From positions 4,151,820 through 4,215,819 of the forward strand of contig OW818676.1 of the NCBI GenBank assembly GCA_942493235.1: 64,000 nucleotides of DNA, written 5' to 3'. A model generated the notes under the pieces. It was not told the origin of the DNA. It was given only the letters and a program-made list of their open reading frames with translations, and did not search any database. This document shows, piece by piece, positions 687 through 45,584 of this stretch. A program made the translations under genes and the position numbers. Every line of letters starts with the position of its first letter. The stretch's first letter is position 1. Origin of the DNA: an uncultured bacterium (GTDB lineage Bacteria > Bacteroidota > Ignavibacteria > Kapaibacteriales > UBA2268).

Positions 687-909
687 AACTCTCCTATTTA
701 GCTAATTAAAAATCCAATTATTATATAAAACGTATTAAAATAACGATAGTTACAAAATAAACATATAGCTAACAATATAAGTTCGTTTCAAAAACCATTG
801 ATTTATGTTTTTATAAAATTCCAATCATTCGCAATGCCTATATCCCAACACTGAAGCAGGGATTGAATAAAAAATGAATCAAAATACTGTACTTATGCAA
901 AAGTCTTCT

Positions 910-1353: not shown

Positions 1354-1449
1354 AACTCTCCCTTATGACTATACTAAAACAATTATAAATGTCTTTGATG
1401 TTTATATAAAACTACGTATAATGGTGCATATTAATTATTTCGAATTACA

Positions 1450-1860
1450 TCAGTTACGAACATAAAAATGAGTCTGGCCGTCAACGTTATCTTCATGTAA
1501 AATCACAGTATCTTTGATGAAAGTTACAATAGTCGGTATTCCATAATGAGGTGTTTCGCGGAATTTATAACAGATTAACAACAAATTAGTAGAATCTTTT
1601 GTATAAGTATAGTTTAGTGTATCGGTAGCAATATCATCCTTTTTAATGATAAGAAGCGAATCACTAAATATATAATACTCATTATGCCCCACACTGCTTG
1701 GAGTGATTACGGAGCCTGCAATTCCTCCGGTAGTTTTAAGCCATCTCCACTCACCGATTAGACTTTCACTGTAATTATCATTTGACGATGTACTGTCGCT
1801 ACAAGAATAAAAGCATATCCCTGCTATCAGTATAATACAAAATGTAAAATATTTTTTCAT
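1450..1860 (-). CDS. Small exported lipoprotein, paralog 3 of 3
   Basis: Same family; its upstream non-coding region (1861-2045) is ~85% identical by eye to that upstream of paralog 1 (700-870). Confidence 0.6.
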   Translation of the reverse strand: MKKYFTFCIILIAGICFYSCSDSTSSNDNYSESLIGEWRWLKTTGGIAGSVITPSSVGHNEYYIFSDSLLIIKKDDIATDTLNYTYTKDSTNLLLICYKFRETPHYGIPTIVTFIKDTVILHEDNVDGQTHFYVRN

Positions 1861-8200: not shown

Positions 8201-8320
8201 TATGCTGAAGTATTAAGGCATCAAGTTTCTGAATTCCAATTAGATACAATGAATAATACATTTAATTCGTTCTATAAGATAGTAGATTATATAAGTAATT
8301 CAGGATTTCACAATGAATAA
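2207..8320 (+). CDS. Giant hybrid sensor histidine kinase: N-terminal receiver, many PAS/PAC domains, HisKA, HATPase_c, C-terminal pseudo-receiver/unknown region
   Basis: N-terminus MRILLVEDN...DLIVLEVVLPDRSG is a receiver; repeated PAS-like blocks across ~1500 aa; H-box SEFIANISHEIRTPLNAIIGYADIL; G-boxes GTGLGLTIS; 2037 codons open. Confidence 0.85.
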   Translation: MRILLVEDNKILASVTREYLKSAGYEVFLAADSVACLKLLNDDEFDLIVLEVVLPDRSGIDLCKEIKSKDSFQDIPIIFLSSLTNKDALVDGLNAGGKDFITKPFNKEELLARVKVNIDLKLSNDLIKKQNELLRREIESRKQAEQSLKISESVYQAVVEDQIEMICRIKPDGTIIFVNNAFCNYFEFSKQDIINNNLFDILVDDDRKIRYKNVLQLGNSETLNHEDYFYDKEGNIKWYNWNLRAIRDTSGMLKEIQGVGADITEKKKIIEELNELSLFNYSIIDNAGEGIAVLDRNFKFQTWNKAMEIMSEFRADEVIGIDCRILFPNIIEKFGKDIDIAFTGQQVKTTVYQLTLTKSQDNLWVSGNFVPHINKYGDIIGLIAVFSNHTEKVIKENQLKESQIRLATLIDSLPFDFWALDNDWNYILQNKSCIDNWKDVKGRNFHELDDYDGLKDIWYANNLKAFSGISVEEHYTLNNAGNDLHKKSVISPVIIDEEIKGIIGTEIDITEIINYQNALKESESKYRLLFDNMLDAFTINEIIYNSEGKPIDYMVTEYNKSYLKLSGFSEEQVKSLSSSERSKEHFHEFFDKIEFSYHSGKSQKFEFYSELYCKYLSLSIYFHSDNKFALIFDDISERKIAEVKLKESEEQFRQLTENIDEVIWLRNKESILYISSSSKKLFNIDSNELISNTNLFYDCIHHEYLELVKSKLYGKEYLEEGKLNIEFKVVIDNKEKWFWCRSFPIFDENSNLIKIAGIVEDITDIKASEEIIRKANLVIEKSNTVIIIWEDLLNLKPQYISESIRHYGYNAKDFIEGTLDFESIIYKEDIEKVRNTITENRLNSKTHYSIDCRHLTFNKEIKWMEIRITDKQTSGTTYYSESISIDISDRKKAEEKLYDSENRWQFAVESSGDGLWEWDVHSGEFLISNNLHSIMEMNIYENIFSINEWETKIHPDDLSEFATSIEYHFKGDYPQIYLEHRLKCSTGVYKWVLDRAKILTKDLNGDPLKVIGTITDISKRKNIEINLFDTSERLKLAKNAANMGIFDLDCKNNILIWDEELFEIFGVKSSDYKNAREAFDTLIYSDDVKMIDEATSLPNLTSNKIELEFGYRKGNNQHCIMKSISDVIFDEFGEPSRIIGVNYDITESKKSEKEIVEVRSLLEATFEQNPAPMVLVEYPSMFVRIANSAFIDFYNIDKEIIPNKMSIIELRSYWQEFLPNGVMLSPYQTPLTQSLKGNRIKNEEYYIKCKDGSVKWELVNSAPIFNSAGELIAAFAVVNDITNIKSAQEKIKQSEDKFRFITENLIDVIWQTDIDLNYTYLSPSISNYSNQSPSDMIGKSILENILPKYHQLIIEKHKESIVNIENKKQPESDTIECESYLPDETSIWSEITYTALIDSNFELIGYQGITRDITKRKLTELAVIESEKRFRTLITSSPDSIFITDLSGLIKFSSLAGSNLFGYDTKSFAEKSITNLLDKTDVNHFNYSINKLIEGKYPQPETFVAHKADGSKIFIEINFSLLKNSAELPEEIIFIIRDITERKKIEFQLTEAKNKAEEANRTKSEFIANISHEIRTPLNAIIGYADILKANIVEYEQKEYIKGIVRGSKNLLAIINDILDLSKIDSGHIEINYSPVNINYIINDIRQMFSLKSKEKNLEFIFETNPELPKIILTDEVRLRQILINLVGNAFKFTNKGFVKLQVDFVAFEGRIDLVFHIIDSGIGIPPSQQKIIFEPFRQQQGQSTRKFAGTGLGLTISDKLAKSMNGNILLVSSQGKGAKFTLELKNVKIPENYEYNRITESNIDIFDNKRIVLISSDIILSTIISDYFYTTNCAFEIFTDSEKAKLEANRNLADAIIIDFDNLSQIEIDNLAHLAKTGFLKEQCLLAISKDNKIPVNSDINFNEVFIKPVDIGLLSDSLTNYLKFININVESMDDKIEQLIDLIILKTDFKKLGQLSPNISSEWRKIKKLMDIDEINRFAESLILTSESMANTYLKIYAEVLRHQVSEFQLDTMNNTFNSFYKIVDYISNSGFHNE

Positions 8321-9676: not shown

Positions 9677-12600
9677 ATGATAAATAAAAAACAACATAAA
9701 TTGGCTTTCGGTACAAAGTTGTCTTTAATTATTTTGTTATTGGTTTTACTAATAAGTTTGCCGATATTATTTTTTGTTTACAATTATATTGACATTAAAA
9801 TAAAAGATAAGACTCAAAATATATTAGTTGATAATTCCAAACAAATTGCAGAAAAAATCAACAGTCAGTTAAATGAAATTCTCTATCAAATCAATCCTAT
9901 TGCCGAATCATTAGAAAATTTAATAAGTACTAATGATATTAATAAGGTAAAGGATAAAATCAATAATACTCTCGATCAGAATAAACATATTTCAGGTATA
10001 TGGATAATGCTTAATCCGGAAGAATTCGTAAGCAATGAAAATATTTCCGACTTCTTATACGCAAGCGTACTCGGAAATATCACTAAAGTATTTGTAAATA
10101 ATTCAAATAATAAGCACATTTTTAAACCACTGAATAATATAAAAGAAAATCAATTTTTAGATATATTCAAAGAATTGAAATATTCGAGACGAAACACAAT
10201 TTCTGCCCCTTCTATAATTTCAGATTATGGAACTCTATATAGCACAATTCAATTATCAATTCCGGTAACAGTCTCCGGTCGATTTATAGGAGTGGTAGGT
10301 ATCCATCTAAGCTCTCAATTCATCGGTAATATACTGAAATACTCCTTTTTAAACGATGATGCAATATCAGCAATTTTCTCAAATAGCGGAGATGTTATTT
10401 TCATAAATAACGACCATTATAATAAAGAAGCAAATATCAATAATTTTAATATTTATAAATCCGAAACTATGCTTGAGATTGAAAAAGCAATTAAAAGCAC
10501 ATATTCGTATTCTATTAATCAGCATTCTGCAATGACTAATTCTAAAGCATTTACTACGGTAATCCCAATACATCTAAAAAAATATAATACTAATTGGGCT
10601 TTAGTCAATGTCTATCCGGACAAATCTTTTTTCACGGATTTAAATAATTTTACTAATTTTTATATATTAATAGTAATTTTAGGGTTACTATTAATGATTG
10701 CATTAATCCATGCTTATTTAAAATTCCAATTAAAGCCATTGAGAAATTATTTAAAATTCTCTAATAATATTTCAAATGGATTTTATCTTCAAGAAATCAA
10801 TGAAAAATATCTTTCTAAATCCGATGAAATCGGTAATCTATTCCAGTCGTTAAAAACTATCCAGGAGAGCTTGAGAAATAAAGACACAGTAGCAATGAAG
10901 AAATACGAAGAGCAAAATAAATATATTACCGGTACTAAATTATTGCTCGAGCAAATGCGTGGCAATCAGGACATTCAAGTATTAGCTAAAAATGTACTGT
11001 CATTTCTTGCAAAATTTATTGATGCTCAAGTAGGCACATTTTATTTATATAACGACGAAACTAAAGTGCTTGAACTTTCGGCATCATTTTCTTTTACTAA
11101 GAGAAAAGGCGACCATTACAAAATCAATTTAGGCGAAGGAGTATTAGGTCAGGCAGCTATTGAAAAACAAATTGTTTTTTTAACCGAAATACCACCGGAT
11201 TATATTAGCATAAGCTCTGCTCTTGGCGATGCAGTACCGCAGAATATAATAATAGCTCCTTTTGTTTATGAAGATAAGCTAATCGGGGTAATAGAATTAG
11301 CAACGTATCTACAATTTGATGATGCTCAAATCGAGTTTATTAAAAACGGACTAGAAAATATTGCTATTGCATTTAATTCTGCCGGAGTCAATAAAAAAGT
11401 CAATTTGCTCTATCAAGAAGCTCAAAATCAAGCTGAAAAACTACAGACTCAGCAAGAAGAGCTTATTGCTACTAATGAAGAACTTGAAGCTCAGACAGTA
11501 GCTTTAAGAAATTCAGAGCATAAACTAATCGAACAACAGGAAGAATTACAAGCTATCAATGAAGAGCTTGAAGAGAAAACAAGTTTTCTTGAAAAGCAAA
11601 AAGGAGAAATAATTCAAAAGAATGAAGAATTACTCGTTGCTCAATATGAAATTGCTCAAAAAGCTAAAGAAATCGAATTGACAAGCCAGTATAAATCCGA
11701 ATTCCTTGCAAATATGTCGCATGAATTAAGAACCCCGCTAAATAGCATATTGATTCTTGCTACTAATTTATTTGAGAATTCAGCAGGAAACTTAGTAGAT
11801 GACCAAGTAGAATCTTCGAAAATCATATACCAGTGTGGAATTGATTTGCTTAATCTGATAAATGATATTTTAGATTTGTCAAAAATTGAAGCTGGCAAGA
11901 TGACTATGAATTTCCAAGCTACCGAAATAATACATATTGCCGACAGTATTAATAAAAACTTCAAAAAATTAGTTGAAAATAAAGGCTTAAAGCTGATTGT
12001 AGATATAGCTGCCGATTTGCCAAAAGAAATAAACACTGACTCCCAACGGCTTGAGCAGGTAATTAAGAATTTTGTTTCAAATGCAGTTAAATTTACTTCT
12101 AAGGGAGAAATCAGTGTATTAATCAGGCATCCCGATGAGTCTGTTAAACTACGTATTCCTGTAAATAATCACAAGCAAGCATTAGAAATTTGCATTAAAG
12201 ATACCGGCATAGGTATTCCCAAAAATAAACAAAGAGAAATTTTTGAAGCTTTCCACCAGTTAGAAAGTCACTTATCAAGGAATTATAATGGTACAGGGCT
12301 TGGCCTGTCTATAGCAAAAGAAATTACTCACTTGCTTAATGGCGTAATTAATCTCAAAAGCATAGAAGGAGAAGGCTCCGAATTCTCGATTATAATTCCA
12401 ATTAATACGCCTATTGCCGAATCTGATACTAATAATCTCGGAATCAATGAATCAAGCAGAATTATTCTGGAAGCTAACAATGAACTATCGACAGAATCTG
12501 TTTTACACAATCTTTCAGATATGCATGTAGAAGATTATAAACAAGAAATTAGCGAATTGTTTACTGCTGAAATAAATATGGCTAATATCGAAGATGACAG

Positions 12601-13792
12601 AAATTCTTTAAAAGAAGGCGATAAGTTAATTTTAGTAGTTGAAGACGATTTGATTTTTGCTAAAATTCTTTATGAACAGGTAACCCACAAATCTTTCAAA
12701 TGTATATATACTGCCACCGGAGAAGAAGCTTTGGCTTTAGCTGATAAGTTTAAGCCCGATGCTATTATATTAGATATTAAACTACCGGGTATTAACGGCT
12801 GGGAAGTTTTGCAATTTCTAAAGGAAAATCCCAACACTCGCCATATACCTGTTCACATGATGAGTGGCGAAGGCAATACAATTGATGCCAAGCGTAACGG
12901 TGCAGTCGGATTTATTAGTAAACCTACCACAAAGGATAAATTAGATAAAGCCCTGACTAATTTAGAAAATCTAATGAAAAAGAAAATCAAAGATTTACTC
13001 GTTGTAGAAGATGACAGCAAACTCCGGAAAAGTATTATCGGGCTATTGAAAGCAGACGACGTTACTACATACGAAGCTGATTCTGGAGCTCAAGCTCTGC
13101 AGTTTTTAAAATATTATAATATTGATTGCATGGTGCTGGACTTAACACTACCGGACATGACCGGCTTTGACTTACTAAACATAATACAAAGAGAATCAGA
13201 TATTAATATTCCTCCCATAATTGTTTACACCGGTAAAGATTTATCTAAAGAAGAAGAAACAAAGATACTGAAATTTGCAGAATCAATTATTATCAAAGGT
13301 GTTAAGTCAGAGGAAAGGCTAATTGATGAAACTGCATTATTTTTACATAGAGTAGTTGATAAAATTCAAGTACATTCAAAAGATATAATACTAAATCTTC
13401 ACGATAAAGATTCTGTTTTTAAAGATAAAAATGTACTTTTAGTCGATGACGATATTAGAAATGCTTTTGCAGTCTCAAAAGTATTAAAAGAAAAAGGAAT
13501 AAATATTACAGTTGCCGAAAATGGCGAGAAAGCAATTGAAGCATTAAAATCCGATACTTCTTTTAATATGGTACTGATGGACATAATGATGCCGATAATG
13601 GATGGATACACTGCAATTACAAAAATTCGTACCGAATTGAATATGAAAAAATTGCCAATAATTGCTCTTACTGCTAAAGCAATGAAAGAAGATAGAGATA
13701 AGTGTATCAATGCCGGTGCAAACGACTATTTATCCAAACCTATAGATTTAAATAAACTGTATTCTTTGTTAAGGGTCTGGTTATATAAATAA
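9677..13792 (+). CDS. Membrane hybrid sensor kinase: TM, periplasmic sensor domain, TM, HAMP, GAF, coiled coil, HisKA, HATPase, three tandem receiver domains
   Basis: Two hydrophobic segments flank a ~300 aa domain; H-box SEFLANMSHELRTPLNSI; GTGLGLSIAKE; three blocks with LxVEDD / VLLVDDD ... D-x-x-LP receiver signatures. Confidence 0.85.
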   Translation: MINKKQHKLAFGTKLSLIILLLVLLISLPILFFVYNYIDIKIKDKTQNILVDNSKQIAEKINSQLNEILYQINPIAESLENLISTNDINKVKDKINNTLDQNKHISGIWIMLNPEEFVSNENISDFLYASVLGNITKVFVNNSNNKHIFKPLNNIKENQFLDIFKELKYSRRNTISAPSIISDYGTLYSTIQLSIPVTVSGRFIGVVGIHLSSQFIGNILKYSFLNDDAISAIFSNSGDVIFINNDHYNKEANINNFNIYKSETMLEIEKAIKSTYSYSINQHSAMTNSKAFTTVIPIHLKKYNTNWALVNVYPDKSFFTDLNNFTNFYILIVILGLLLMIALIHAYLKFQLKPLRNYLKFSNNISNGFYLQEINEKYLSKSDEIGNLFQSLKTIQESLRNKDTVAMKKYEEQNKYITGTKLLLEQMRGNQDIQVLAKNVLSFLAKFIDAQVGTFYLYNDETKVLELSASFSFTKRKGDHYKINLGEGVLGQAAIEKQIVFLTEIPPDYISISSALGDAVPQNIIIAPFVYEDKLIGVIELATYLQFDDAQIEFIKNGLENIAIAFNSAGVNKKVNLLYQEAQNQAEKLQTQQEELIATNEELEAQTVALRNSEHKLIEQQEELQAINEELEEKTSFLEKQKGEIIQKNEELLVAQYEIAQKAKEIELTSQYKSEFLANMSHELRTPLNSILILATNLFENSAGNLVDDQVESSKIIYQCGIDLLNLINDILDLSKIEAGKMTMNFQATEIIHIADSINKNFKKLVENKGLKLIVDIAADLPKEINTDSQRLEQVIKNFVSNAVKFTSKGEISVLIRHPDESVKLRIPVNNHKQALEICIKDTGIGIPKNKQREIFEAFHQLESHLSRNYNGTGLGLSIAKEITHLLNGVINLKSIEGEGSEFSIIIPINTPIAESDTNNLGINESSRIILEANNELSTESVLHNLSDMHVEDYKQEISELFTAEINMANIEDDRNSLKEGDKLILVVEDDLIFAKILYEQVTHKSFKCIYTATGEEALALADKFKPDAIILDIKLPGINGWEVLQFLKENPNTRHIPVHMMSGEGNTIDAKRNGAVGFISKPTTKDKLDKALTNLENLMKKKIKDLLVVEDDSKLRKSIIGLLKADDVTTYEADSGAQALQFLKYYNIDCMVLDLTLPDMTGFDLLNIIQRESDINIPPIIVYTGKDLSKEEETKILKFAESIIIKGVKSEERLIDETALFLHRVVDKIQVHSKDIILNLHDKDSVFKDKNVLLVDDDIRNAFAVSKVLKEKGINITVAENGEKAIEALKSDTSFNMVLMDIMMPIMDGYTAITKIRTELNMKKLPIIALTAKAMKEDRDKCINAGANDYLSKPIDLNKLYSLLRVWLYK

Positions 13793-31391: not shown

Positions 31392-34300
31392 TTATTTTAT
31401 AACAGTTACGCTTTTATTTTCAATTTTGTTATCAGAGTATTTAATTCTTAATATATAAGTACCGCTAACAAAGTCTTTGGCATCAAGTACATAATCAGAA
31501 ATAATATCGCCGTTTAAATTCTTAATGCAAACGCTATTACCTGATAAATCAATTAATTCTAAACTTTTCGGTGTAGAGCTATTTAAGAATTTGACATATA
31601 TCATATCAGAGCTTGGATTAGGAGAGATAATCGAATTACTAATCACTCTATCGATTATTCCCAAACCATCTTCGGCTATAGCCTTTATATTTAATAATAT
31701 AGGAGTAATTTCTCCGCTATTGTAAATTTTTAAAACCGCCGATTTATCGCCTTTAGTTTTTGGGTAGTAGTTCAATTCAATTTCGGTAGTTTCTCCTACA
31801 CTAATTACTTTATCAAATTCATTATTTAAAACAAATTCATTCGTTGCTGTATTAGCTCCTGGAGAAATTTCAGAACCGCTAACAGAAATATCGACTATAC
31901 CCATATTCTTAATTTTAATATAAGCAGTATTTGTATCATTTACTTTTGCTGTGCCGAAGTCGTGCTCATCTCCGTCTATAAATGCTATTGTGTTTGAAGG
32001 CAGAGCTTCTTTGGCATAAGCGTTTAAAGTAATTATAAGCTCAGGCTCAATAGCATTGCTTCTTATTTTCAAATATGCAGTTTTTTTACCGACTGTTTTC
32101 GGTGAAAATTTAAATCTGAGTAAAATTGTTTCCATTGGTTCTATAGAACTAATATCAGCCGTAACTAAACTGAATTCATTAGCATTAGTATTTTCTCCGG
32201 GTTCGATTATTATCACGTCAATATCTGTGCTGATATTACCAATATTTTTAATTTTAATTGTTTTTGTTTTATTTTTAAATACCTCGGCTGTATCGCATTG
32301 TACTAAGTTACCATCTAAAGAGATTAGCTCACGCGTTCCGTTTAGTATATCGTATTTAAAGTTAAGTCTTCCGAATGTAGTACCGGCATCAAAAACTATT
32401 GCGGTATTAGGATTATATGAGTAAGCAGCTCCGATTTTAATTCCGCTTTTTCGTTTTGTTAAAATAGGTTTCCAGCTTATTCCTTTGTCAGAAGTAACTA
32501 CCACACTACCATTTTTTAATAGCATATAGAAATCAGCTGAATTATATACATTAAAAACAGACAATACATCATAGCCGAGAGTAGTTAAATTAATATTTGT
32601 CGGAGTCCAGTTCGCTCCGCCATCATCTGTAAAAGCAAGAAATGAATTAGCTCCGCTTTGCTTATTAAAGACCGCCATACCATTGAGTGCTGTACTAAAT
32701 ACTATATAATGAATTTCCAAAGCACCGCTAATAGTTGAGGTTGACCAGCTTGCTCCTTTGTTATTAGTATAGACTACTCTGCCCTTTGTAGTTCCAAAAG
32801 CTCCTTTATCTTCATACCAGCAACTTGAAGTATTAATACTTGTTTCTGCGGCTAAAGAGACAATCGGATTGCTGATTGACTCCCAAGTAGTTCCAGCATC
32901 AATGGTACGTACTATTCCCCAAGTACCGTTTTTAGGATCACCAATTACTACCCCGATACTGTTTTCAAAAAAATGTATATCATTAATAAATGTAGTAAAT
33001 GAACTCAGATCTTTTTCTGTCCAAGACTCGCCTGTATTTTCGGTATAATAGACCTTTTTCTCGTAATTACTGCTTGATGCTAAATATGCGGAACTCGCAC
33101 TAAATGCATGTACAGCTGTAATCGGGCTACTTGACACTTCATTATAGAAAATATAATTATTTGCAGTTTGCTTCAAAAAGCCACCGCTATAATTATAACC
33201 ATTACCAAATAAAGGACCATAGCCAACATACCAGCACACATCCTTACTCGGTGCATAAGCATCATAGAATTCTGGCAAATAAGAAGAAGGTAGTTCATAG
33301 TCAATTGTATAAGTATTTTTATTATTTGAAATATTGACCGGTATTGCTATCATCTCATAGTCTAAATAATTATCAGCTTCATAATAAACTACTAATTTCA
33401 TGTAACCAGAAAACCAAGGATTATCTGCTGTCAATGCAATAGTCGGGGTAATAGTCTTATTTGTTAATGAATCAAAATTTTCTAATGTAAAGCTATTGTT
33501 AGTAATCACAAAACCTTTATCCGGTGAAGATATAGTAACAATGCAATTATTAGCAGGGGCAAGATAGTTTTTCAATGTGATTTTGTAAGGTCTCGCTGTA
33601 TTATCTATTAATTCAGATGCTAAACCATCAGTAAACTCAGATTTAACTATACCAATGCCGGGTACTTGTTTGCTTTGGTCATCAGAATTATATGTTACCG
33701 CTTGGTATGCATCAGCTATACCAAAGAATAGCTCGCTACCGTTAGTTTCTTGAATATTTTTATTGGCAGTACTTCTAATCTGATGATAAACTTGCTGAGG
33801 AGACCATTCGGGATGAATTGTCTTAACTAACGCAGCTATTCCGGCAATATAAGGTGAAGAAAATGATGTCCCGTCCGTAGTAGTATATTGATTACTTGCA
33901 TCAGTAGTATAAATTCGAGAACCGGGAGCAAATACCCCTACCGAATAGCCATAATTTGTAAAATCAGACGCTGATTTTGCTGAAGTTACAGAGCCAATAC
34001 TAAAAGCATTGCTAAAGTTAGCAGGATAAAACTTAGTATCATCGGTATTTGAGTAATCATTACCTGATGAAACTATCAGGCAGGCTCCCTTTGATGCAGC
34101 ATAATTAATTACAGCTTCTTCAGAAGCACTATATCCCTGACCGCCCCAAGAACAGTTAATTACCTGTGCCCCAAGTTTAGCAGCATAAGTAATGCCTGCA
34201 TATCCGTTATAAATCCCGGAAACACCGGATATTGATGAACCGCATTTTATAGGGATAATTTTACAGTTAAAACCAATACCCGCAACGCCCATATTGTTGT

Positions 34301-35174
34301 CCGTGGTCGCACTTGCACATCCTGCTACAGAAGTACCATGAGTATTAACTAAATTCGTTGGGTCGTTATCTTCACGAAAATTACCACTATTTATATCTGA
34401 GATACTGCTTGTAGCACAGAAATCCCAACCGTGAACATCATCAATTTTTCCGTTTTTATCATCATCGACTCCGTTGCCGGCAATTTCGTTTGGATTAGTC
34501 CAGATATTTGCGGCTAAGTCTTTGTGATTAATGTCAACTCCTGAGTCAACAATTGCAATTTTAACTGTATCGCTACCTTTAGTAACGCCCCAAGCTTTAA
34601 ACATATTTAAGATAGTTAAACCATATTGCAAATTTACATTTGAATCATTCGGAGTAAAGTCGTGCTGCTCCCTTATATAAACAGGGCAAGCAAATTCAAC
34701 ATCAGGATTGCTCATCAGCTCTGAGCAAATGTTATATGGGTCATCTTGAGAGTCATATCTGACTTCATAAATTCTATCTATACCAAATGTATTAGCTTGA
34801 TTATCGGAAATAATTAATTCCGAAGGTATAAATTTCTTTATGCTTGTTGCTTTAATTGAATTAAGAGCATTATTCAAATAATTTATTCCGTTAAATCGTG
34901 CTCCGCTGACTATCGAAGTAATTGCTTTAGTTTTAATATGAATCACACCTTTAACAATGTACTTATCTTCGATACGATCGATAGTTCTAATACTAAAATT
35001 TCCATCTCCATTAGTGCCGGGAACTAATACGGTATATTGCTCTACATTACCGTCAGAATTATGTTTAATAACTGATTTAAATTTGCTTGGATTTTCAAAC
35101 GGAGCTGCATATAGCCCCATACTAAAAAGACCTAACAAAGCAATCATGAAAATAGCTTTGTAGAATTTACTCAT
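31392..35174 (-). CDS. Secreted subtilisin-family (S8) serine peptidase with BNR/sortilin-like repeats and T9SS C-terminal sorting domain
   Basis: Asp (IAIVDSGVD), His (THGTSVAG) and Ser (GTSFSSPYIAG) active-site motifs; repeated S/T-x-D-x-G-x-(S/T)-W blocks; C-terminus SPNPSSDMIYVKF...GTYILRI T9SS tail. Confidence 0.85.
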   Translation of the reverse strand: MSKFYKAIFMIALLGLFSMGLYAAPFENPSKFKSVIKHNSDGNVEQYTVLVPGTNGDGNFSIRTIDRIEDKYIVKGVIHIKTKAITSIVSGARFNGINYLNNALNSIKATSIKKFIPSELIISDNQANTFGIDRIYEVRYDSQDDPYNICSELMSNPDVEFACPVYIREQHDFTPNDSNVNLQYGLTILNMFKAWGVTKGSDTVKIAIVDSGVDINHKDLAANIWTNPNEIAGNGVDDDKNGKIDDVHGWDFCATSSISDINSGNFREDNDPTNLVNTHGTSVAGCASATTDNNMGVAGIGFNCKIIPIKCGSSISGVSGIYNGYAGITYAAKLGAQVINCSWGGQGYSASEEAVINYAASKGACLIVSSGNDYSNTDDTKFYPANFSNAFSIGSVTSAKSASDFTNYGYSVGVFAPGSRIYTTDASNQYTTTDGTSFSSPYIAGIAALVKTIHPEWSPQQVYHQIRSTANKNIQETNGSELFFGIADAYQAVTYNSDDQSKQVPGIGIVKSEFTDGLASELIDNTARPYKITLKNYLAPANNCIVTISSPDKGFVITNNSFTLENFDSLTNKTITPTIALTADNPWFSGYMKLVVYYEADNYLDYEMIAIPVNISNNKNTYTIDYELPSSYLPEFYDAYAPSKDVCWYVGYGPLFGNGYNYSGGFLKQTANNYIFYNEVSSSPITAVHAFSASSAYLASSSNYEKKVYYTENTGESWTEKDLSSFTTFINDIHFFENSIGVVIGDPKNGTWGIVRTIDAGTTWESISNPIVSLAAETSINTSSCWYEDKGAFGTTKGRVVYTNNKGASWSTSTISGALEIHYIVFSTALNGMAVFNKQSGANSFLAFTDDGGANWTPTNINLTTLGYDVLSVFNVYNSADFYMLLKNGSVVVTSDKGISWKPILTKRKSGIKIGAAYSYNPNTAIVFDAGTTFGRLNFKYDILNGTRELISLDGNLVQCDTAEVFKNKTKTIKIKNIGNISTDIDVIIIEPGENTNANEFSLVTADISSIEPMETILLRFKFSPKTVGKKTAYLKIRSNAIEPELIITLNAYAKEALPSNTIAFIDGDEHDFGTAKVNDTNTAYIKIKNMGIVDISVSGSEISPGANTATNEFVLNNEFDKVISVGETTEIELNYYPKTKGDKSAVLKIYNSGEITPILLNIKAIAEDGLGIIDRVISNSIISPNPSSDMIYVKFLNSSTPKSLELIDLSGNSVCIKNLNGDIISDYVLDAKDFVSGTYILRIKYSDNKIENKSVTVIK

Positions 35175-40309: not shown

Positions 40310-41146
40310 TTACTTAATAAAATAAGAGAGAACAACTATACCAAGTATAATTCTATATACTACGAATATATATGTAGTTCGAGTCTTCAAAAATTTAATT
40401 AATAACGCAATTGATGCGTATCCACTAATTGCAGCTGCCAATGTAGCCACAGATAGTGCTAAAATATCGCTTGAATTAATATATTCCAAACTCTGATAAA
40501 ATTCTAATATTCCACTTGCCATCACAGCAGGGATACTTAACAAAAAAGAGAATTTAGCAGCGGTATCTCGTTTCATTCCAAGGAACAAACCGGCAGTAAT
40601 AGTAGTGCCTGAGCGTGATGCTCCGGGAATTAATGCAAGGCATTGAGCTAATCCGACTACAAGAGCATCTTTTAATGTTAAGTCTTTATTTTCTTTTTTA
40701 AATTTGCCGAATTTCTCGGCGACAGCTAAAATCAATGCCAATACTATCAAACTAATACCGATAATAATCGGGTCTTTAGTAAATTCACCTTCGATTACTT
40801 TTTTGATTAGCAAGCCAATCGCTACTATAGGAATAGTACCTAAAGTAATAAAATAAGCAAACTTTGAGTTCGTGCTTTGCTCTTTATATGGTAATTTACC
40901 TGTACCGAAATTTTCCCTAAAAAATGCTAAGGGAATATCGCGAATCTCTTTTGCAAAATATACAAATACAGCAAGCAATGTACCCAATTGAATAGTTGCC
41001 ATAAAAGATGTCCACTTCTCGGGATGAGCTGAATCAATGCTGCCGAACAAATGCCCGGCAAGAGTTAAATGAGCTGTTGAACTAATCGGAATAAATTCGG
41101 AAAGCCCCTGAATTAATCCTAAGATAATAGCTGTAAAAACATCCAT
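40310..41146 (-). CDS. uppP: Undecaprenyl-diphosphatase
   Basis: MDVFTAIILGLIQGLSEFIPISSTAHL N-terminus and SRSGTTITAGL motif. Confidence 0.9.
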   Translation of the reverse strand: MDVFTAIILGLIQGLSEFIPISSTAHLTLAGHLFGSIDSAHPEKWTSFMATIQLGTLLAVFVYFAKEIRDIPLAFFRENFGTGKLPYKEQSTNSKFAYFITLGTIPIVAIGLLIKKVIEGEFTKDPIIIGISLIVLALILAVAEKFGKFKKENKDLTLKDALVVGLAQCLALIPGASRSGTTITAGLFLGMKRDTAAKFSFLLSIPAVMASGILEFYQSLEYINSSDILALSVATLAAAISGYASIALLIKFLKTRTTYIFVVYRIILGIVVLSYFIK

Positions 41147-41147
41147 A

Positions 41148-44100
41148 CTATTTATTCTTCTCCGCTTTTAAAATAAATTCGGCTTTAATTACCTTTTTAC
41201 TCGTTTTGCTGATTTTATATTTATTACTTAATCGCTTACCGACTACCCAAATTATTTCCGACTTTGTAGTTAGAAGTATTATATTTTGCTTCTCCATAAT
41301 CGGAACCTTAATATTGCTTAAGAAATCGCTTACTTTAACATGCCCCTCCATACCAAGTGGCTGGAAAATATCTCCGGTCTCCCAACTACGCAATTGCAAA
41401 TATGAAGGAATTAGTTCGGCATCTATATACTCAATATTTGTATCTTTATTGAAGTCAGCAGTTTTCCGCTGTACTTCGGTTAATCTTAAAATATGCGTAC
41501 CGAGGTCATATTCGCCGGTTCGCTCTATTTGCATATCAACTTTAAAAGTAGAACTTTTAATTGAAAATACAAGATGATTTCTATCTTTAAGTACAAAAGC
41601 ATTTTTATTTATGTCGCATATTGAGCCACTCGGTGATTCGCAGAGCGACAGAATTCTATCGATAGTATTTGATGTTATTGGTAATGATTTAAATACCTTA
41701 ACTACTGATTGCTGTATTATCTCACTTTGGATAAATTCGGTAAAAGTCTGCAATTGCGGAATATTAATATAATATCTGTCTTTTCTTCTGTCTTTAATCA
41801 GAATTTGAAGCAATCCATTAACGTAAGTATTAATAAAATCATCAGCTCCACGTAAAATGGCAGCAGTCTTATTAATAGTTTCTATAATTGCTGGAGAGAA
41901 ATCCTCTTTTAATTTCGGCAATAGGTCTAATCTTATTTTATTTCGAGTATAATTGGTAAGAGCGTTTGTCTCGTCTTCTCTCCAAGCTAATTTTCTTTCT
42001 TTTGCATATTCATATATATCAGATTTCTTAATATTGATGATAGGTCTGATCAAGTGCGAATTTTTAGTAAGTATTCGCTTTTTTGGAATTCCGGTTAATC
42101 CGGTAAGACCTGTACCACGCATCAGATTAAGTAAAAATGTTTCGGCACTATCGTCAGAAGTATGAGCGGTAGCCACAAAATTAATCTTTAAATTGCCGGC
42201 TAATCTCTCGAACATTTTATAACGTCGCACTCTGGCAGCTTGCTCAATAGAAATTGAATTTGCCGAAGCATAAGCCATAATGTTTTCTGAATTAGTATAG
42301 ACCTTTAATGCGTATTTCTCTGATATTTTGCGAACTAATTCTTCATCTTCATCAGAAGACAATCCCCTAAGATTATGATTAAAATGAGCCACAATTAGCG
42401 TAAATTTATATTTTTCGGATAGCTGGGCAAACATATCAAGTAACGAAATTGAGTCAACTCCCCCGCTTACAGCAACCATTATTCTTGCTCCTTCAGCAAC
42501 AAATAATTCTTCAGTTAGGGAATATTCAAATTTTTTGAGTAAAGCCTCAACAGTTGGATTGCTTGGTTTATCAGGATTAATAAGCATTTTTGACGAAATT
42601 TTAGAATATACCAAATCATCATTCGGATTTTTCTTTAGCTTTTTAATTGGCTCCGGAGCTACTTCAAAAGTAGTTTTGATATAATTGGGGTCCATTACCA
42701 ACGGATCAATTATTTCATCAGGGTCGTCAAGTTCAATCTTTTCATTAGTGTATTTATGCTTATTCTGGAATTTTGTATTCTTATGTTTATTTCTATTATC
42801 AGACTTTTCTTTGACTTCTTTCTCTACCGCTACGACTTTCTCAATCGAAACCTCTTCAATTGGCTTATCGGCTTCGGAGCTAATCTCGTCTAATTGGACA
42901 GTTCCGGATTTTAATAATTGCTCTGCTTCTAAAGCAGCTTTCTCTGCTTTAAGCTTTTTGGCAAATTTCTTCCGTCTGTTATTTCTCTGTGAAGCCGTTT
43001 CTTTTTTATATTCTTCATTAGTAACGACTTCGCTTATAGTTTCATTAGGTAATACAATCGCATCTGATGCTAAATCAAGAATTTTAGCAGTTGTATTTTC
43101 CTTTTTATGCTTGTTAATATTTTTAGAAAAAGGCAACCTGATTATTTCATTTTTTTCTTCAATAATAGGTTCTTTAACTTCTCTTTCAGAAATATTTTCA
43201 TTAACAGAAACTGATTCAATCGGCTTATTTTGCTGTTTATTTTGATTCTTTTTACTAAAAGGTAATCTTATCGTTTTTGAACTAATAATTGTTAATATAG
43301 GCTCTACTTCAGATTTACTACTTTCTCCTCTTTTATCTTCTGCCTTATTAGTTTCAGCGTTTGGAAAATCAGTGGCATTGCTATTTCTGTTTTTCTGCCA
43401 ATTATTATTTTGGGAATTATTACTACGGAAATTATTATTACGAGAATTATTATTTTGGGAATTATTACTACGAAAACTATTATTTTTTTGTTGTGGTTTT
43501 AACCTTTGACTCTCAGCATTTGAATTCTCTATTATCTCTGAACTTACTCTTTCAGTACTTAATTTCTCAGTATTAATTTTTGATTCCACTCGTTGAGTGT
43601 TTGCAGTTCTATCATTAGAATTTTGCTTTGATTCCACTCGTTGAGTATTTACAGTTCTATCATTAGGATTTTGCTTTGATTCCACTCGTTGAGTGTTTGC
43701 AGTTCTATCATTAGGATTTTGCTTTGATTCCACTCGTTGAGTGTTTACAGTTTTTTCATTAGGATTTTGCTTTGGTTCCACTCGTTGAGTATTTACAGTT
43801 CTATCATTAGGATTTTTATCATTCAGATTCTGTTTTGATTCCACTCGTTGAGTATTTACAGTTCTATCATTAGAATTTTGCTTTGGTTCCACTCGTTGAG
43901 TGTTTACAGTTCTATCATTAGGATTTCTATCATTCAGATTCTGCTTTGATTCAGCTCTTTGAGTGTTTACAGTTCTATCATTTGAATTTCTATCATTCAG
44001 ATTCTGCTTTGATTCAGCTCTTTGAGTGTTTACAGTTCTATCATTAGGATTTCTATCATTCAGATTTTGCTTTGGTTCAGCTCTTTGAGTATTTACAGTT

Positions 44101-45341
44101 CTATCATTAGGATTCTGCTTTGATTCAGCTCTTTGAGTATTTACAGTTCTATCATTAGGATTCTGCTTTGGTTCCACTCTTTGAGTGTTTGAATTTACTT
44201 TTGTTAGAGGTTCTTGATTATTTAAAGATTGTCCATCTATAGTACTTTTTTCAAATGTATCTGATTTAACTTGACTTTGACTATTGGGCTGAATCAAATT
44301 TTTATTTCTGTTCAGAGGAGAATGTCTTTTCTGATTAACAATAGTAACAATAGCCGGTAAATTATTTTCTTTTTTATCGGATAGAGTTTTATTCGTCGGA
44401 GCTGATGATAATTTATCTTTTTCTGAAGGGATAATACTTTCCGCATTCACTTTTTTGGAGCTTGTTTGGGCTTTATCATCAAATAATGCATTGTTGTCAT
44501 TATTTGAATATTTAGGTTTATTCCTAAAACTATTCCTATTTTGAAAATCTTTAGTAGGATTAGATTCATCAGAATTTAAAGTAGGAGCATTATCACGAGT
44601 ATTTGCTTTTTGCTCTACACTTTGCTTTGAATAATGATGAGTATGCTTTGGCTTTTGCTCTACAGCAGGCTTTGCAAAATTCTCCTGTTGACTTGCTTTT
44701 TGCTCTACAGTCTGTTTTGAATAATTCGGAAGTTTGGACTTTTGCTCTACAGCAGGCTTTGCAAAATTCTCTTGTTGATTTGCTTTTTGCTCTACACTTT
44801 GCTTTGAATAATGATGAGTATGCTTTGGCTTTTGCTCTACAGCAGGCTTTGCAAAATTCTCTTGTTGACTTGCTTTTTGCTCAACAGTCTGTTTTGAATA
44901 ATTCGTTTGCTTTTGCTCTACGGCAACTTTTGCAAAATTTTCCTGTTGACTTGCTTTTTGCTCATCGGTTTGTTTGGAATAATTATTCTGATGTTTAGGC
45001 TTATGATCTAAAATCGGTCTTGAATAATTGCTTGAGCGATTATCCTTGCTATAGCCTTGTTTTGAGCCTTCATCACTTGCAGAATGCTTGCTATCAGAGC
45101 GGTATTTGCTCTTATAATTGGAATTGCTTCTATAATCATCATTATAGCCGGTATTTGGCTGATAATTTGGTTTTACTCCCCGAACTTGTTCAGGATTAAC
45201 AATTAATCTATCATCTGTCGAAAGCTTAATATCTCTAAGCAGAGGTTTTTTCTTAATATATCCGCCGCTTTTACTATCTGATTTTTCTTTATTAGCGGAA
45301 TAATTATGAATCTTATTATTTTCTGTATTTGTTTTTGCCAT
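41148..45341 (-). CDS. tilS: tRNA(Ile)-lysidine synthetase with ~900-aa N-terminal low-complexity repeat extension (single open frame)
   Basis: C-terminal ~480 aa has the PP-loop ARIMVAVSGGVDSISLL and full TilS-like length; upstream ~900 aa is N/Q/K/S-rich tandem repeats (NTQRVESKQNPNDRTV x~12; KQTVEQKASQQENFAKPAVEQKPKHTHHYS x~4) with no in-frame stop. Confidence 0.65.
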   Translation of the reverse strand: MAKTNTENNKIHNYSANKEKSDSKSGGYIKKKPLLRDIKLSTDDRLIVNPEQVRGVKPNYQPNTGYNDDYRSNSNYKSKYRSDSKHSASDEGSKQGYSKDNRSSNYSRPILDHKPKHQNNYSKQTDEQKASQQENFAKVAVEQKQTNYSKQTVEQKASQQENFAKPAVEQKPKHTHHYSKQSVEQKANQQENFAKPAVEQKSKLPNYSKQTVEQKASQQENFAKPAVEQKPKHTHHYSKQSVEQKANTRDNAPTLNSDESNPTKDFQNRNSFRNKPKYSNNDNNALFDDKAQTSSKKVNAESIIPSEKDKLSSAPTNKTLSDKKENNLPAIVTIVNQKRHSPLNRNKNLIQPNSQSQVKSDTFEKSTIDGQSLNNQEPLTKVNSNTQRVEPKQNPNDRTVNTQRAESKQNPNDRTVNTQRAEPKQNLNDRNPNDRTVNTQRAESKQNLNDRNSNDRTVNTQRAESKQNLNDRNPNDRTVNTQRVEPKQNSNDRTVNTQRVESKQNLNDKNPNDRTVNTQRVEPKQNPNEKTVNTQRVESKQNPNDRTANTQRVESKQNPNDRTVNTQRVESKQNSNDRTANTQRVESKINTEKLSTERVSSEIIENSNAESQRLKPQQKNNSFRSNNSQNNNSRNNNFRSNNSQNNNWQKNRNSNATDFPNAETNKAEDKRGESSKSEVEPILTIISSKTIRLPFSKKNQNKQQNKPIESVSVNENISEREVKEPIIEEKNEIIRLPFSKNINKHKKENTTAKILDLASDAIVLPNETISEVVTNEEYKKETASQRNNRRKKFAKKLKAEKAALEAEQLLKSGTVQLDEISSEADKPIEEVSIEKVVAVEKEVKEKSDNRNKHKNTKFQNKHKYTNEKIELDDPDEIIDPLVMDPNYIKTTFEVAPEPIKKLKKNPNDDLVYSKISSKMLINPDKPSNPTVEALLKKFEYSLTEELFVAEGARIMVAVSGGVDSISLLDMFAQLSEKYKFTLIVAHFNHNLRGLSSDEDEELVRKISEKYALKVYTNSENIMAYASANSISIEQAARVRRYKMFERLAGNLKINFVATAHTSDDSAETFLLNLMRGTGLTGLTGIPKKRILTKNSHLIRPIINIKKSDIYEYAKERKLAWREDETNALTNYTRNKIRLDLLPKLKEDFSPAIIETINKTAAILRGADDFINTYVNGLLQILIKDRRKDRYYINIPQLQTFTEFIQSEIIQQSVVKVFKSLPITSNTIDRILSLCESPSGSICDINKNAFVLKDRNHLVFSIKSSTFKVDMQIERTGEYDLGTHILRLTEVQRKTADFNKDTNIEYIDAELIPSYLQLRSWETGDIFQPLGMEGHVKVSDFLSNIKVPIMEKQNIILLTTKSEIIWVVGKRLSNKYKISKTSKKVIKAEFILKAEKNK
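43580..44200. repeat. Coding tandem repeat, 48-bp unit (some 63 bp), about 12 copies
   Basis: gattccactcgttgagtgtttacagttctatcattaggattttgcttt iterated; encodes the 16-aa unit NTQRVESKQNPNDRTV on the minus strand. Confidence 0.8.
44600..44990. repeat. Coding tandem repeat, ~90-bp unit, about 4 copies
   Basis: gctttttgctctaca(c/g)t(t/c)tg(c/t)tttgaataa...ttttgctctacagcaggctttgcaaaattctc(c/t)tgttgactt iterated. Confidence 0.75.
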
Positions 45342-45584
45342 AAGTATTTATATTTATAAAACTTTTTCTTACTTTTTTTGCCTATTTTTAGAATACAAAA
45401 ATAAGCAAAAAGAACAAGAAATACTCAATAATACTGTATATATCTTATATGTCTATAATTAGAGCGATATAAAGTATAATTTTCAATTTTATTAAATAGA
45501 TTAACATACTTCAATCAGAGACTTTTTTAAATAAAAGCACAGAAGAAATAATTCCACTGTGCTTTTGATTTATGTCAATTTGTT

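What the first reader, a model, noticed from the sequence alone, without database searches (positions are those of the whole stretch)
41148..45341. tilS is fused in-frame to a ~900-aa disordered tandem-repeat N-terminal domain
The TilS catalytic region (PP-loop SGGVDS, length comparable to a complete TilS) occupies only the last ~480 codons of a 1397-codon open frame. The preceding ~2.7 kb is N/Q/K/S-rich low-complexity sequence built from two tandem-repeat families: a 16-aa unit repeated about 12 times and a ~30-aa unit repeated about 4 times. The DNA repeats are near-perfect. In an AT-rich genome, 2.7 kb with no stop in this frame is very unlikely unless it is translated, yet TilS is normally a compact ~450-aa essential enzyme. 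This is either a real fusion of an intrinsically disordered repeat domain to an essential tRNA-modifying enzyme, or tilS starts at the internal Met (MLINPDKPS...) and an upstream repeat protein lacks its own stop. Near-identical repeats also imply recent expansion and possible length polymorphism.
Basis: seen in the sequence. Interest (0 to 1): 0.7.

Follow-up and report, generated by a model that had tools for sequence, protein, structure and literature searches.

The report
TilS with giant disordered N-terminal extension
An essential tRNA-modifying enzyme (TilS) in this bacterium really does carry a ~920-residue, positively charged, repeat-filled floppy tail on its front end, and the same kind of tail (different sequence each time) turns out to be common across its whole lineage (Kapaibacterium-like bacteria), so it is a selected feature and not an annotation or assembly accident.

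Summary
Window 41148-45341 (minus strand) is one uninterrupted 1397-codon ORF. A complete TilS occupies aa ~919-1397. Aa 1-918 is a polar, basic (net +40, pI 9.6), domain-free region predicted to be disordered, with three in-frame tandem-repeat arrays. It is translated. Codon usage in frame 0 is gene-like throughout. The closest relative (L081) conserves the 240 aa upstream of the internal Met at protein level (pN 0.26 against pS 0.70; 78% identity in the last 68 aa). It is also not unique. In 80 related loci (Kapaibacterium/"Kapabacteria" MAGs), the in-frame open stretch before the PP-loop reaches 400-1000 codons in many subclades. Extension sequences are unrelated, but all 42 extensions of at least 150 aa are net positive across GC 27-58% (K is replaced by R). 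All 25 repeat arrays found have periods divisible by 3. Only 3 of 464 flanking ORFs have comparable low-hydrophobicity regions. Best reading: a lineage-wide, fast-evolving polycationic disordered appendage on TilS, probably an electrostatic RNA/tRNA tether. That function is inferred, not shown. A short isoform from Met919 cannot be excluded. I found no description of this in the literature.

The parts
41148..45341 (-). Whole 1397-codon ORF (extension + TilS), ATG at 45341-45339, stop at 41150-41148
42588..45341 (-). N-terminal extension, aa 1-918: polar, basic (net +40, pI 9.6), no Pfam hit even at E<=10, predicted disordered
44604..44999 (-). Repeat array A (aa ~115-246): 27-30-aa units ..NYSKQTVEQKASQQENFAKPAVEQKPKHTHH.., about 4 copies; 177-nt super-unit x2.1 at 92%
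43554..44189 (-). Repeat array B (aa 385-596): 12 units of 16 or 21 aa (48 or 63 nt). Copies differ by synonymous changes (AAC/AAT, CGA/AGA, AAG/AAA, CAA/CAG) and by some replacements
43400..43484 (-). 15-nt (5-aa) N/S/Q/R micro-repeat, 5.7 copies (aa ~620-647)
42588..43307 (-). Proximal, non-repetitive part of the extension (aa 679-918), conserved with the closest relative L081 (58% aa identity, pN 0.26 vs pS 0.70). Includes two RLPFSK motifs (43248-43274, 43119-43145)
42909..42995 (-). Only predicted secondary-structure element in the proximal extension: basic/amphipathic helix aa 783-811 (ASQRNNRRKKFAKKLKAEKAALEAEQLLK), pLDDT ~68-83
42660..42758 (-). Conserved linear motif aa 862-894, HKYTNEKIELDDPDEIIDPLVMDPNYIKTTFEV. 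It matches NKYExE..LPPEDYIKxTFPE in L001-L004 and is nearly identical in L081, with synonymous third-position differences
42585..42587 (-). Internal in-frame ATG (Met919), 8-10 codons upstream of where canonical TilS sequences begin. Conserved only in L081, not in other relatives
41151..42587 (-). TilS enzyme proper (aa 919-1397): PP-loop domain 41931-42482 (SGGVDS at 42450-42467), TilS_C 41193-41399. AF2 pLDDT >90 from about aa 910 onward
45533..45566 (-). Strong stem-loop just after the rny stop (-19 kcal/mol, z = -6), followed by ~190 nt of AT-rich spacer before the ORF start. It separates the ORF from the upstream gene
40310..41146 (-). uppP (BacA) starts 1 nt after the TilS stop. The tilS-uppP(-lgt) arrangement is shared with L081 and L001-L004

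Best explanation
The ORF encodes one polypeptide: a canonical type-I TilS (tRNA(Ile2) C34 lysidine synthetase) with a ~918-residue intrinsically disordered, polycationic, polar N-terminal extension. The extension is a characteristic of TilS in the Kapaibacterium/'Kapabacteria' lineage. Selection keeps the reading frame open and keeps its bulk properties (low hydrophobicity, net positive charge, K/R-rich first residues). Its sequence is replaced quickly through birth, in-frame slippage and decay of tandem repeats. Only the ~240 aa next to the enzyme hold recognisable motifs among close relatives. Shown here: it is coding, it is under constraint, it is lineage-wide, and its charge is conserved. 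Inferred: the extension works as a non-specific electrostatic polyanion/RNA-binding arm. It would raise local tRNA concentration or tether TilS to RNA-rich structures such as ribosomes or the nucleoid, like the lysine-rich disordered N-terminal appendages of eukaryotic LysRS/AspRS. My confidence is ~0.9 that it is a translated, selected, lineage-wide fusion and ~0.35 that RNA/polyanion tethering is the function.
For: Translation: frame-0 codon log-odds are +0.20 to +0.47 in every 100-codon block of the extension, the same as the TilS part and 22 training genes (mean 0.28), and the other five frames are near zero or negative and always below frame 0. Frame 0 has 0 stops; shuffles gave a mean of 74 and a minimum of 48. 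Constraint: against L081 (TilS 84% aa identity), aa 679-918 is 58% identical with pN 0.26 vs pS 0.70. Aa 851-918 is 78% identical with pN 0.12 vs pS 0.61, close to TilS at pN 0.10. Synonymous third-position changes run through HKYTNE...TTFEV. Lineage-wide: PP-loop positions of 5-403 in the 120 best database homologues. In 80 genome loci the open in-frame stretch before the PP-loop reaches 1001-1045 codons, with many at 400-800, and an ATG usually lies within a few codons of the upstream stop. Long extensions occur in nearly all subclades of an NJ tree. Specific to TilS: 39 of 67 TilS ORFs but only 3 of 464 flanking ORFs have >=100 aa of low-hydrophobicity sequence, and it is the only long region of this kind among ~40 ORFs of the window. 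Charge: 42 of 42 extensions >=150 aa are net positive (median +5.2 per 100 aa, median pI 9.75) across GC 0.27-0.58, with K replaced by R as GC rises. 53 of 75 distinct N-termini have >=2 K/R in residues 2-8. Repeats: 25 of 25 arrays in 16 of 47 extensions have periods divisible by 3, with unrelated units. Disorder: AF2 with a 99-sequence alignment gives pLDDT <50 for aa 640-782 and 812-909 against >90 for TilS. Aa 1-640 folded from the single sequence has mean pLDDT 39. There is no Pfam hit at E<=10. [quoted passage not shown]
Against: No direct evidence of expression exists (no proteome, Ribo-seq or transcript data). The functional inference rests on composition alone. Charge density is modest (18% K+R, net +0.044 per residue), and much of the extension is N/Q/S/T-rich rather than classically RNA-binding. 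Several subclades manage with only ~45-70 residues before the PP-loop, so a long arm is dispensable for TilS chemistry. Extension sequences share no significant similarity even at 58% TilS identity, which also fits weak or absent selection on most of its length. dS against L081 is saturated, so dN/dS values are only rough. The 42/42 charge result is not corrected for phylogenetic non-independence. A Met919 start would give a normal-length TilS.
Confidence: 0.6

Rival explanations
1. Tolerated junk. The extension is translated, but most of it has no function. The TilS N-terminus is a permissive site where slippage-prone A-rich sequence expands and contracts neutrally. Selection acts only against stops and frameshifts (which would kill an essential enzyme when the start is far upstream) and against hydrophobic, aggregation-prone sequence. 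Positive charge would be a by-product of K/N/R-rich low-complexity sequence.
For: No sequence conservation between extensions of relatives. Complete replacement of the repeat array between the window and L081. Short-extension subclades exist. A hand-picked basic-helix motif did not generalise in an HMM test: only the seed sequences (and two loci encoding the same proteins as seeds) were recovered, and nothing new.
Against: Net positive charge in 42 of 42 extensions persists across a two-fold GC range through a K-to-R switch, which mutational bias alone does not explain. The trait is concentrated on TilS (39/67 against 3/464 neighbouring ORFs). The proximal 240 aa are under clear purifying selection. 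Retaining 400-1000 codons in many subclades is costly for pure junk.
Confidence: 0.25
2. Two isoforms. Both the 1397-aa protein and a ~479-aa canonical TilS starting at Met919 are made from the same ORF, as with the in-frame internal starts that give IF2 alpha and beta in E. coli (my own knowledge). The short form supplies housekeeping activity and the long form a specialised role.
For: Met919 lies 8-10 residues before the position where Aquifex and Geobacillus TilS begin. Met919 is conserved in L081. Shine-Dalgarno use is weak genome-wide, so a missing SD does not argue against an internal start.
Against: No Met at the equivalent position in L001-L004 or in most other relatives. No promoter-like or SD-like signal above chance upstream of Met919. 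AF2 places residues ~910-918 in the confidently folded part.
Confidence: 0.12
3. Artefact. The long frame results from mis-assembly of repeats or a hidden frameshift, or the upstream part is a separate gene that lost its stop only in this assembly.
For: Repeats do break assemblies of relatives. L001 has a run of N inside its array. L006 has a 1-nt frameshift at an A7 run. L081 has a frameshift inside the catalytic domain.
Against: The frame here is intact for 4.2 kb with gene-like codon usage throughout. The same architecture occurs independently in dozens of assemblies from different projects. Copy number could be wrong, but every unit length is a multiple of 3, so the frame would survive.
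Confidence: 0.03

Closest known systems
Canonical bacterial TilS (Geobacillus kaustophilus 3A2K, E. coli MesJ 1NI5, Aquifex aeolicus 1WY5)
   Same: Aa ~929-1397 align over essentially the whole solved enzymes: 3A2K residues 13-442 (E 6e-44), with the PP-loop domain plus the C-terminal substrate domain.
   Different: Solved and typical TilS proteins are 317-464 aa and start ~20-35 residues before the PP-loop. Here 918 extra residues precede that point.
Disordered, lysine-rich N-terminal tRNA-interaction appendages of eukaryotic LysRS/AspRS (PMC6213541 for human LysRS; yeast AspRS from my own knowledge)
   Same: N-terminal, basic, intrinsically disordered, attached to an enzyme that must capture tRNA. 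The abstract says the appendage is absent from the prokaryotic counterparts of LysRS.
   Different: Those are ~60-70 residues with high lysine density and are conserved in sequence. This one is 10-15 times longer, N/Q/S/T-rich with modest net charge, repeat-built, unconserved in sequence, bacterial, and untested for tRNA binding. No homology.
Variable disordered terminal extensions of bacterial IF2 (PMC12919033)
   Same: A universal translation-related protein with lineage-variable, disordered, phase-separation-prone N-terminal extensions that are dispensable for core chemistry.
   Different: Different protein. IF2 extensions are known and partly characterised; nothing comparable is described for TilS.
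In-frame amino-acid tandem repeats that create disordered regions in Borg elements (bioRxiv 10.1101/2022.05.18.492195)
   Same: A-rich tandem repeats inside ORFs with unit lengths divisible by 3, rapid independent origin, and disordered products. That abstract also reports that homologous proteins carry repeats of similar composition.
   Different: Borg repeats are described as perfect and recently formed, and are enriched in extracellular and membrane proteins. Here the copies are 80-95% identical, sit in a cytoplasmic essential enzyme, and make up only about a third of the extension.
Plasmodium falciparum apicoplast TilS (PMC12069591)
   Same: A TilS with an N-terminal extension (180 aa) ahead of conserved catalytic domains.
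   Different: That extension is predicted to be a bipartite organelle transit peptide. There is no such compartment in a bacterium, and the extension here is 5 times longer.

Membership tests
TilS, tRNA(Ile)-lysidine synthetase | PP-loop ATP-pyrophosphatase motif SGGxDS in an N-terminal-type catalytic domain | tested here: met
   SGGVDS at aa 959-964. PF01171 E 3.8e-52. TIGR02432 190.4 bits against a cutoff of 93.6.
TilS, tRNA(Ile)-lysidine synthetase | TilS-specific C-terminal substrate-binding domain (type I architecture) | tested here: met
   PF11734 29.5 bits (cutoff 22). TIGR02433 27.7 bits (cutoff 20.2) at aa 1315-1383.
TilS, tRNA(Ile)-lysidine synthetase | End-to-end similarity to a structurally solved TilS | tested here: met
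   3A2K residues 13-442 aligned, E 6.2e-44. 1WY5 residues 3-245, E 3.3e-39. AF2 pLDDT >90 over the TilS part.
TilS, tRNA(Ile)-lysidine synthetase | Full-length equivalog score (NF007942, E. coli-type PRK10660) | tested here: not met
   108.9 bits against a cutoff of 606. It is not the proteobacterial equivalog, as expected for a distant phylum. The domain-level equivalog models are met.
TilS, tRNA(Ile)-lysidine synthetase | Lysidine formation on tRNAIle2(CAU), and presence of that tRNA in the genome | not testable with these tools
   No tRNA gene in the 64-kb window. The rest of the genome is not available. Enzymatic activity needs experiment.
Appended disordered tRNA-binding extension (eukaryotic LysRS/AspRS type) | N-terminal, basic, intrinsically disordered segment on a tRNA-handling enzyme | tested here: met
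   Net +40, pI 9.6. pLDDT <50. 42 of 42 relatives net positive.
Appended disordered tRNA-binding extension (eukaryotic LysRS/AspRS type) | Sequence homology to those appendages or any RNA-binding domain | tested here: not met
   No Pfam family at E<=10. The all-library HMMER search with aa 640-918 gave one weak hit, a WHEP-repeat protein, at E 2e-7 summed over 5 repeats, judged spurious.
Appended disordered tRNA-binding extension (eukaryotic LysRS/AspRS type) | Demonstrated non-specific tRNA binding that improves catalysis | not testable with these tools
   Needs EMSA or filter binding and kinetics with full-length against truncated enzyme.
In-frame tandem-repeat-generated disordered regions (aaTR type) | Repeat periods divisible by 3 and independent origin in homologues | tested here: met
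   25 of 25 arrays in 16 of 47 extensions. Unit sequences are unrelated between the window, L081, L001 and L003.
In-frame tandem-repeat-generated disordered regions (aaTR type) | Perfect or near-perfect copies (recent formation) | tested here: not met
   Arrays in the window are 75-95% identical, with both synonymous and replacement differences between copies.

The most novel reading that the evidence does not exclude
Across a whole bacterial lineage, an essential single-substrate tRNA-modification enzyme carries a selected polycationic disordered arm of 200-1000 residues. Only its physical properties are conserved. The arm concentrates or tethers the enzyme on RNA (ribosomes, nucleoid or a condensate). 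This would be a bacterial, independently evolved counterpart of the appended domains of eukaryotic tRNA synthetases, continually rebuilt by tandem-repeat turnover.
Probability: 0.3. Interest if true: 0.7.

Novelty: new variant of a known kind. Interest (0 to 1): 0.5.

Why it matters
Long disordered regions are rare in bacteria, and ones of ~900 residues on a small essential housekeeping enzyme are exceptional (my own knowledge). Dozens of natural variants are available here. They share charge, polarity and position but no sequence, on an enzyme with a simple assayable reaction and a single substrate tRNA. That makes it a clean system for asking what composition-only selection on a disordered region does in a bacterium. 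Candidate answers include substrate capture, localisation, condensates and regulation by proteolysis. It would also show how tandem repeats build such regions. It has a practical side as well. Gene callers and assemblers mishandle these genes: there are truncated starts, frameshifts in homopolymers and gaps in repeats. As a result, TilS lengths in Kapabacteria MAG annotations are unreliable.

Tried and rejected
(1) A full-length protein search returned only the query itself, because low-complexity words swamped candidate selection. An exact-product contig look-up and a cluster look-up did not name the source genome.
(2) BLASTP of the extension against extensions of the closest relatives and against ~110 others gave nothing significant. 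The only near-hit was a convergent KQNPN-type repeat in L042, E 0.07.
(3) I picked out by eye a possible shared basic helix motif (RRKKFAKKLKAE...). An HMM built from it recovered only its own seeds (plus two loci that encode the same proteins as seeds) and no new members at E<0.01, so I dropped it as a family-wide motif.
(4) The N-terminal 'MAK.NTE' resemblance to L023/L038/L044 is not significant.
(5) The all-library HMMER search with aa 640-918 gave one hit, a WHEP-repeat protein. I treat it as a composition and repeat artefact.
(6) The third word-indexed search, with aa 679-960, returned nothing, not even the query, so it is uninformative.
(7) A metagenome scan for near-identical strains, intended for comparing repeat copy number, found only distant TilS genes.
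(8) Synteny with rny as a functional clue was rejected. rny is not upstream of tilS in any relative, and a strong hairpin separates the two genes here.
(9) Shine-Dalgarno and promoter scans do not discriminate between the two candidate starts.
(10) A genome-wide habit of basic tails was rejected as far as the data allow: 3 of 464 flanking ORFs. Whole proteomes were not examined.

Full report
**1. What is in the window**

Window 41148-45341 on the minus strand is a single ORF of 1397 codons starting with ATG. A stop lies three codons upstream of that ATG, so it is the first possible start.

All recognisable domains are in the last third.
- Pfam PP-loop domain, aa 954-1137 (E 3.8e-52), and TilS_C, aa 1315-1383.
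- NCBIfam TIGR02432, 190 bits against a cutoff of 93.6, and TIGR02433, 27.7 against 20.2.
- The PP-loop SGGVDS is at aa 959-964.
- Against solved structures, Geobacillus TilS residues 13-442 and Aquifex TilS residues 3-245 align from our aa 946 and 929 onward. So aa ~919-1397 is a complete canonical TilS, and everything before it is extra.

The extra 918 residues have these properties.
- Composition is N13 K12 S9 E8 Q7 %. Net charge is +40 and pI is 9.6.
- There is no Pfam match even at E<=10.

They contain three tandem-repeat arrays.
- Twelve 16- or 21-aa units at aa 385-596.
- About four 27-30-aa units at aa ~115-246.
- A 5-aa micro-repeat near aa 620-647.

The exception is that the DNA copies are 75-95% identical, not near-perfect; only one 128-nt pair reaches 98%.

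**2. Is the extension translated?**

- Frame 0 has no stop in 918 codons. The other five frames have 45-174, and 1000 shuffles averaged 74 with a minimum of 48.
- I trained a codon-usage log-odds score on 22 other long ORFs of the window. It is +0.20 to +0.47 per codon in every 100-codon block of the extension. That matches the TilS part (0.17-0.33) and the training genes (mean 0.28). All other frames are near zero or negative and always below frame 0.
- Copies within array B differ by synonymous changes (AAC/AAT, AAG/AAA, CAA/CAG, and the first-position synonymous CGA/AGA) as well as some replacements.
- The strongest evidence comes from the closest relative I could find, L081 (ENA contig; its TilS part is 84% identical in protein, 77% in DNA).
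  - Aa 679-918 of the extension align with 58% identity, pN 0.26 against pS 0.70.
  - The last 68 residues before Met919 are 78% identical, pN 0.12 against pS 0.61. That is close to the catalytic domain (pN 0.10).
  - The block HKYTNE..DDPDEIIDPLVMDPNY[IV]KTTF is conserved in protein while third codon positions differ.
  - dS is saturated, so the ratios are rough, but the direction is clear.
- Sequence upstream of Met919 is therefore read as protein in this frame.

**3. The trait is lineage-wide**

- A search with the TilS part alone gave 2108 homologues. In the best 120, the PP-loop sits anywhere from residue 5 to residue 403. The extra N-terminal sequence is K-rich and low in complexity, and sometimes repetitive.
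- To avoid relying on gene callers, I fetched 80 loci from species-representative genomes and read the DNA. Most are labelled Candidatus Kapaibacterium, Kapabacteria, Ignavibacteria or Bacteroidota MAGs (taxonomy).
- The in-frame open stretch before the PP-loop is 400-1045 codons in many of them. Examples: L029 1001, L037 1045, L065 816, L035 801, L070 782, L018 765, L004 686. An ATG typically lies within a few codons of the upstream stop.
- Ignavibacterium album (L080) has only 32 residues before the PP-loop.
- On a neighbour-joining tree of the catalytic parts, long extensions occur in almost every subclade. A few subclades have only ~45-70 residues.
- Some apparently short cases are artefacts: contig ends, a run of N inside L001's repeat array, and a 1-nt frameshift at an A7 run in L006 that splits a ~700-aa extension from TilS.
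- So the 958-residue distance to the PP-loop here is at the top of a continuous range (L029 has 959 counted from its first ATG) and is not an outlier.

**4. What is and is not conserved**

Sequence is not conserved.
- BLASTP finds nothing significant between this extension and those of relatives with 53-58% identical TilS, or any of ~110 others.
- An exhaustive HMMER search of 1.84 billion representatives with aa 640-918 found only one weak hit. It is probably spurious and is to a WHEP-repeat protein.
- Within the immediate subclade (window, L081, L001-L004), one short motif ~35-90 residues upstream of the enzyme is shared: NKYExE...LPPEDYIKxTFPE, which appears as HKYTNE...DPNYIKTTFEV here.

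Physical properties are conserved.
- All 42 extensions of at least 150 aa are net positive (median +5.2 per 100 residues, median pI 9.75).
- This holds from 27% to 58% GC because lysine is replaced by arginine as GC rises.
- 53 of 75 distinct N-termini have at least two K/R in residues 2-8, typically MAKKK, MPRKKK or MARRP.

Repeats arise independently and in frame.
- 16 of 47 extensions contain tandem arrays with unrelated units. All 25 arrays have periods divisible by three.
- L081, despite its closeness, has a different 39-aa unit, at least 7 copies, where the window has its 16/21-aa array.

The trait is concentrated on TilS.
- 39 of 67 TilS ORFs but only 3 of 464 neighbouring ORFs in the same loci have at least 100 residues of low-hydrophobicity sequence.
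- In the window it is the only long region of this kind among ~40 ORFs.

**5. Structure**

- AlphaFold2 on aa 640-1397 with a 99-sequence alignment gives pLDDT above 90 for TilS from about aa 910.
- It gives below 50 for aa 640-782 and 812-909.
- There is one helix at aa 783-811 (RRKKFAKKLKAEKAALEAEQ) at pLDDT ~68-83.
- Aa 1-640 folded from the single sequence has mean pLDDT 39, with no residue above 70. That fits disorder, with the usual caveat for single-sequence predictions.

**6. Context**

- The upstream gene is RNase Y. It ends with a strong hairpin (-19 kcal/mol, z = -6) followed by ~190 nt of AT-rich spacer.
- rny is not next to tilS in any relative, so I draw no functional link.
- Downstream, uppP starts 1 nt after the TilS stop, followed by lgt. 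This order is shared with L081 and L001-L004.
- Shine-Dalgarno use is weak throughout the window, so ribosome-binding sites do not decide between the two candidate starts. Promoter-like matches are at chance level.

**7. Interpretation**

Shown:
- The ORF is a genuine, translated fusion.
- The architecture is typical of the lineage.
- Frame, polarity and positive charge are maintained while sequence turns over by repeat birth and decay.
- The part nearest the enzyme is under ordinary purifying selection.

Inferred:
- A long, flexible polycation attached to an enzyme that must find one rare tRNA most plausibly acts as an electrostatic arm. It would bind RNA or other polyanions non-specifically, and so capture tRNA or hold TilS on ribosomes or the nucleoid.
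- This is the logic established for the disordered lysine-rich N-terminal appendages of eukaryotic LysRS (PMC6213541) and AspRS (my own knowledge).
- I put ~0.9 on the fusion being real and selected, and ~0.35 on this particular function.

Alternatives:
- The main alternative (0.25) is that most of the length is tolerated filler, kept open only because a stop would kill an essential gene.
- A short isoform from Met919 (0.12) is possible. That start would give a normal TilS and the Met is conserved in L081. But the Met is absent at that position in other relatives.
- An assembly artefact is unlikely (0.03).

**8. Novelty**

- Full-text searches found no description of N-terminal disordered extensions on bacterial TilS. 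I searched for TilS with 'N-terminal extension', lysidine synthetase with 'disordered', and Kapabacteria with 'intrinsically disordered'.
- The only TilS extension found is the 180-aa transit peptide of Plasmodium apicoplast TilS.
- The closest conceptual parallels are variable disordered IF2 extensions (PMC12919033) and in-frame tandem repeats that generate disordered regions in Borg elements.
- I class this as a new variant of a known kind: a known enzyme with an undescribed, lineage-wide appended region.
- Interest is moderate. It is surprising in size and in being conserved by composition only, and it is experimentally tractable. Its function remains inferred.

Noticed in passing
L006 5380-5430 (OW818654.1, 4.49-Mb metagenome chromosome): The TilS extension (ORF 4004-5422, starts MPRRK) is separated from the TilS frame by a 1-nt shift at an A7 homopolymer, just before a 72-nt x3.2 repeat. 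It is either a long-read consensus error or a genuine slippage site. As annotated, TilS looks short (TTG start at 5701).
   Followed up: partly
L081 2290-2340 (ENA ERZ21878172 ctg4745l): The closest relative has a frameshift inside the TilS catalytic domain (..FVATRAYF* followed by a new ORF MRGTGLTGL..). This splits an essential gene, so it is most likely an assembly error. Its extension runs off the contig end inside a 117-nt repeat array.
   Followed up: partly
L001 about 4200-4300 (CAZIIZ010000015.1): A run of N sits inside a 99-nt x7.6 repeat array in the TilS extension. The database protein (P0002) therefore starts at an internal GTG and under-reports the extension (PP-loop at 324; at least 641 codons open).
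   Followed up: yes
record titles of L001, L003, L005, L008, L012 and others: Many contigs whose TilS and uppP are clearly Kapaibacterium-like carry the title 'uncultured Hyphomicrobiales bacterium'. Others are titled Chloroflexota, Desulfobulbaceae or Patescibacteria. The taxonomic labels of these MAG records look wrong.
   Followed up: no
window 243-1860 (-): Three tandem paralogous small ORFs (136-147 aa) with near-identical lipoprotein-like N-termini (MKKYFTFCIILIAGICFYSCSDSTSS).
   Followed up: no
window 2207-8320 (+) and 9677-13792 (+): Two very large hybrid sensor kinases. The first is 2037 aa (receiver, many PAS domains, HisKA, HATPase). The second is 1371 aa (GAF, HisKA, HATPase, three receiver domains).
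   Followed up: partly
window 31392-35174 (-): A 1260-aa S8 subtilase with Ig-like domains and a type IX secretion C-terminal sorting domain. This fits a Bacteroidota-group organism.
   Followed up: partly
window 45533-45566 (-): A strong stem-loop directly after the rny stop (-19 kcal/mol, z = -6.05). The terminator scan missed it because its outer loop is longer than the scan allows.
   Followed up: yes
L035 8124-10355 and L040 8058-10253: Two of the three non-TilS flanking ORFs with long low-hydrophobicity regions lie about 0.7 kb downstream of the tilS match in GC-rich relatives. They have polar N-termini (MAFEDKNNTNQQGKGPQPP.., 731-743 aa) ahead of a hydrophobic segment, and could be FtsH-like. 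I did not identify them.
   Followed up: no
P0122 (432 aa, from the representatives search): The only library hit to aa 640-918 is a protein made of ~70-aa repeats that look to me (from memory, not tested) like the WHEP-type helix-turn-helix linker repeats of eukaryotic tRNA synthetases. The match (aa 806-847, 38% identity, summed over 5 repeats) is probably compositional, but the family is an RNA-binding appendage of tRNA synthetases.
   Followed up: partly
L042 extension, aa ~178-342: An unrelated relative has KQNPNQ-type repeats that resemble the KQNPND core of array B in the window (BLASTP E 0.07). This may be convergence on similar low-complexity units.
   Followed up: no
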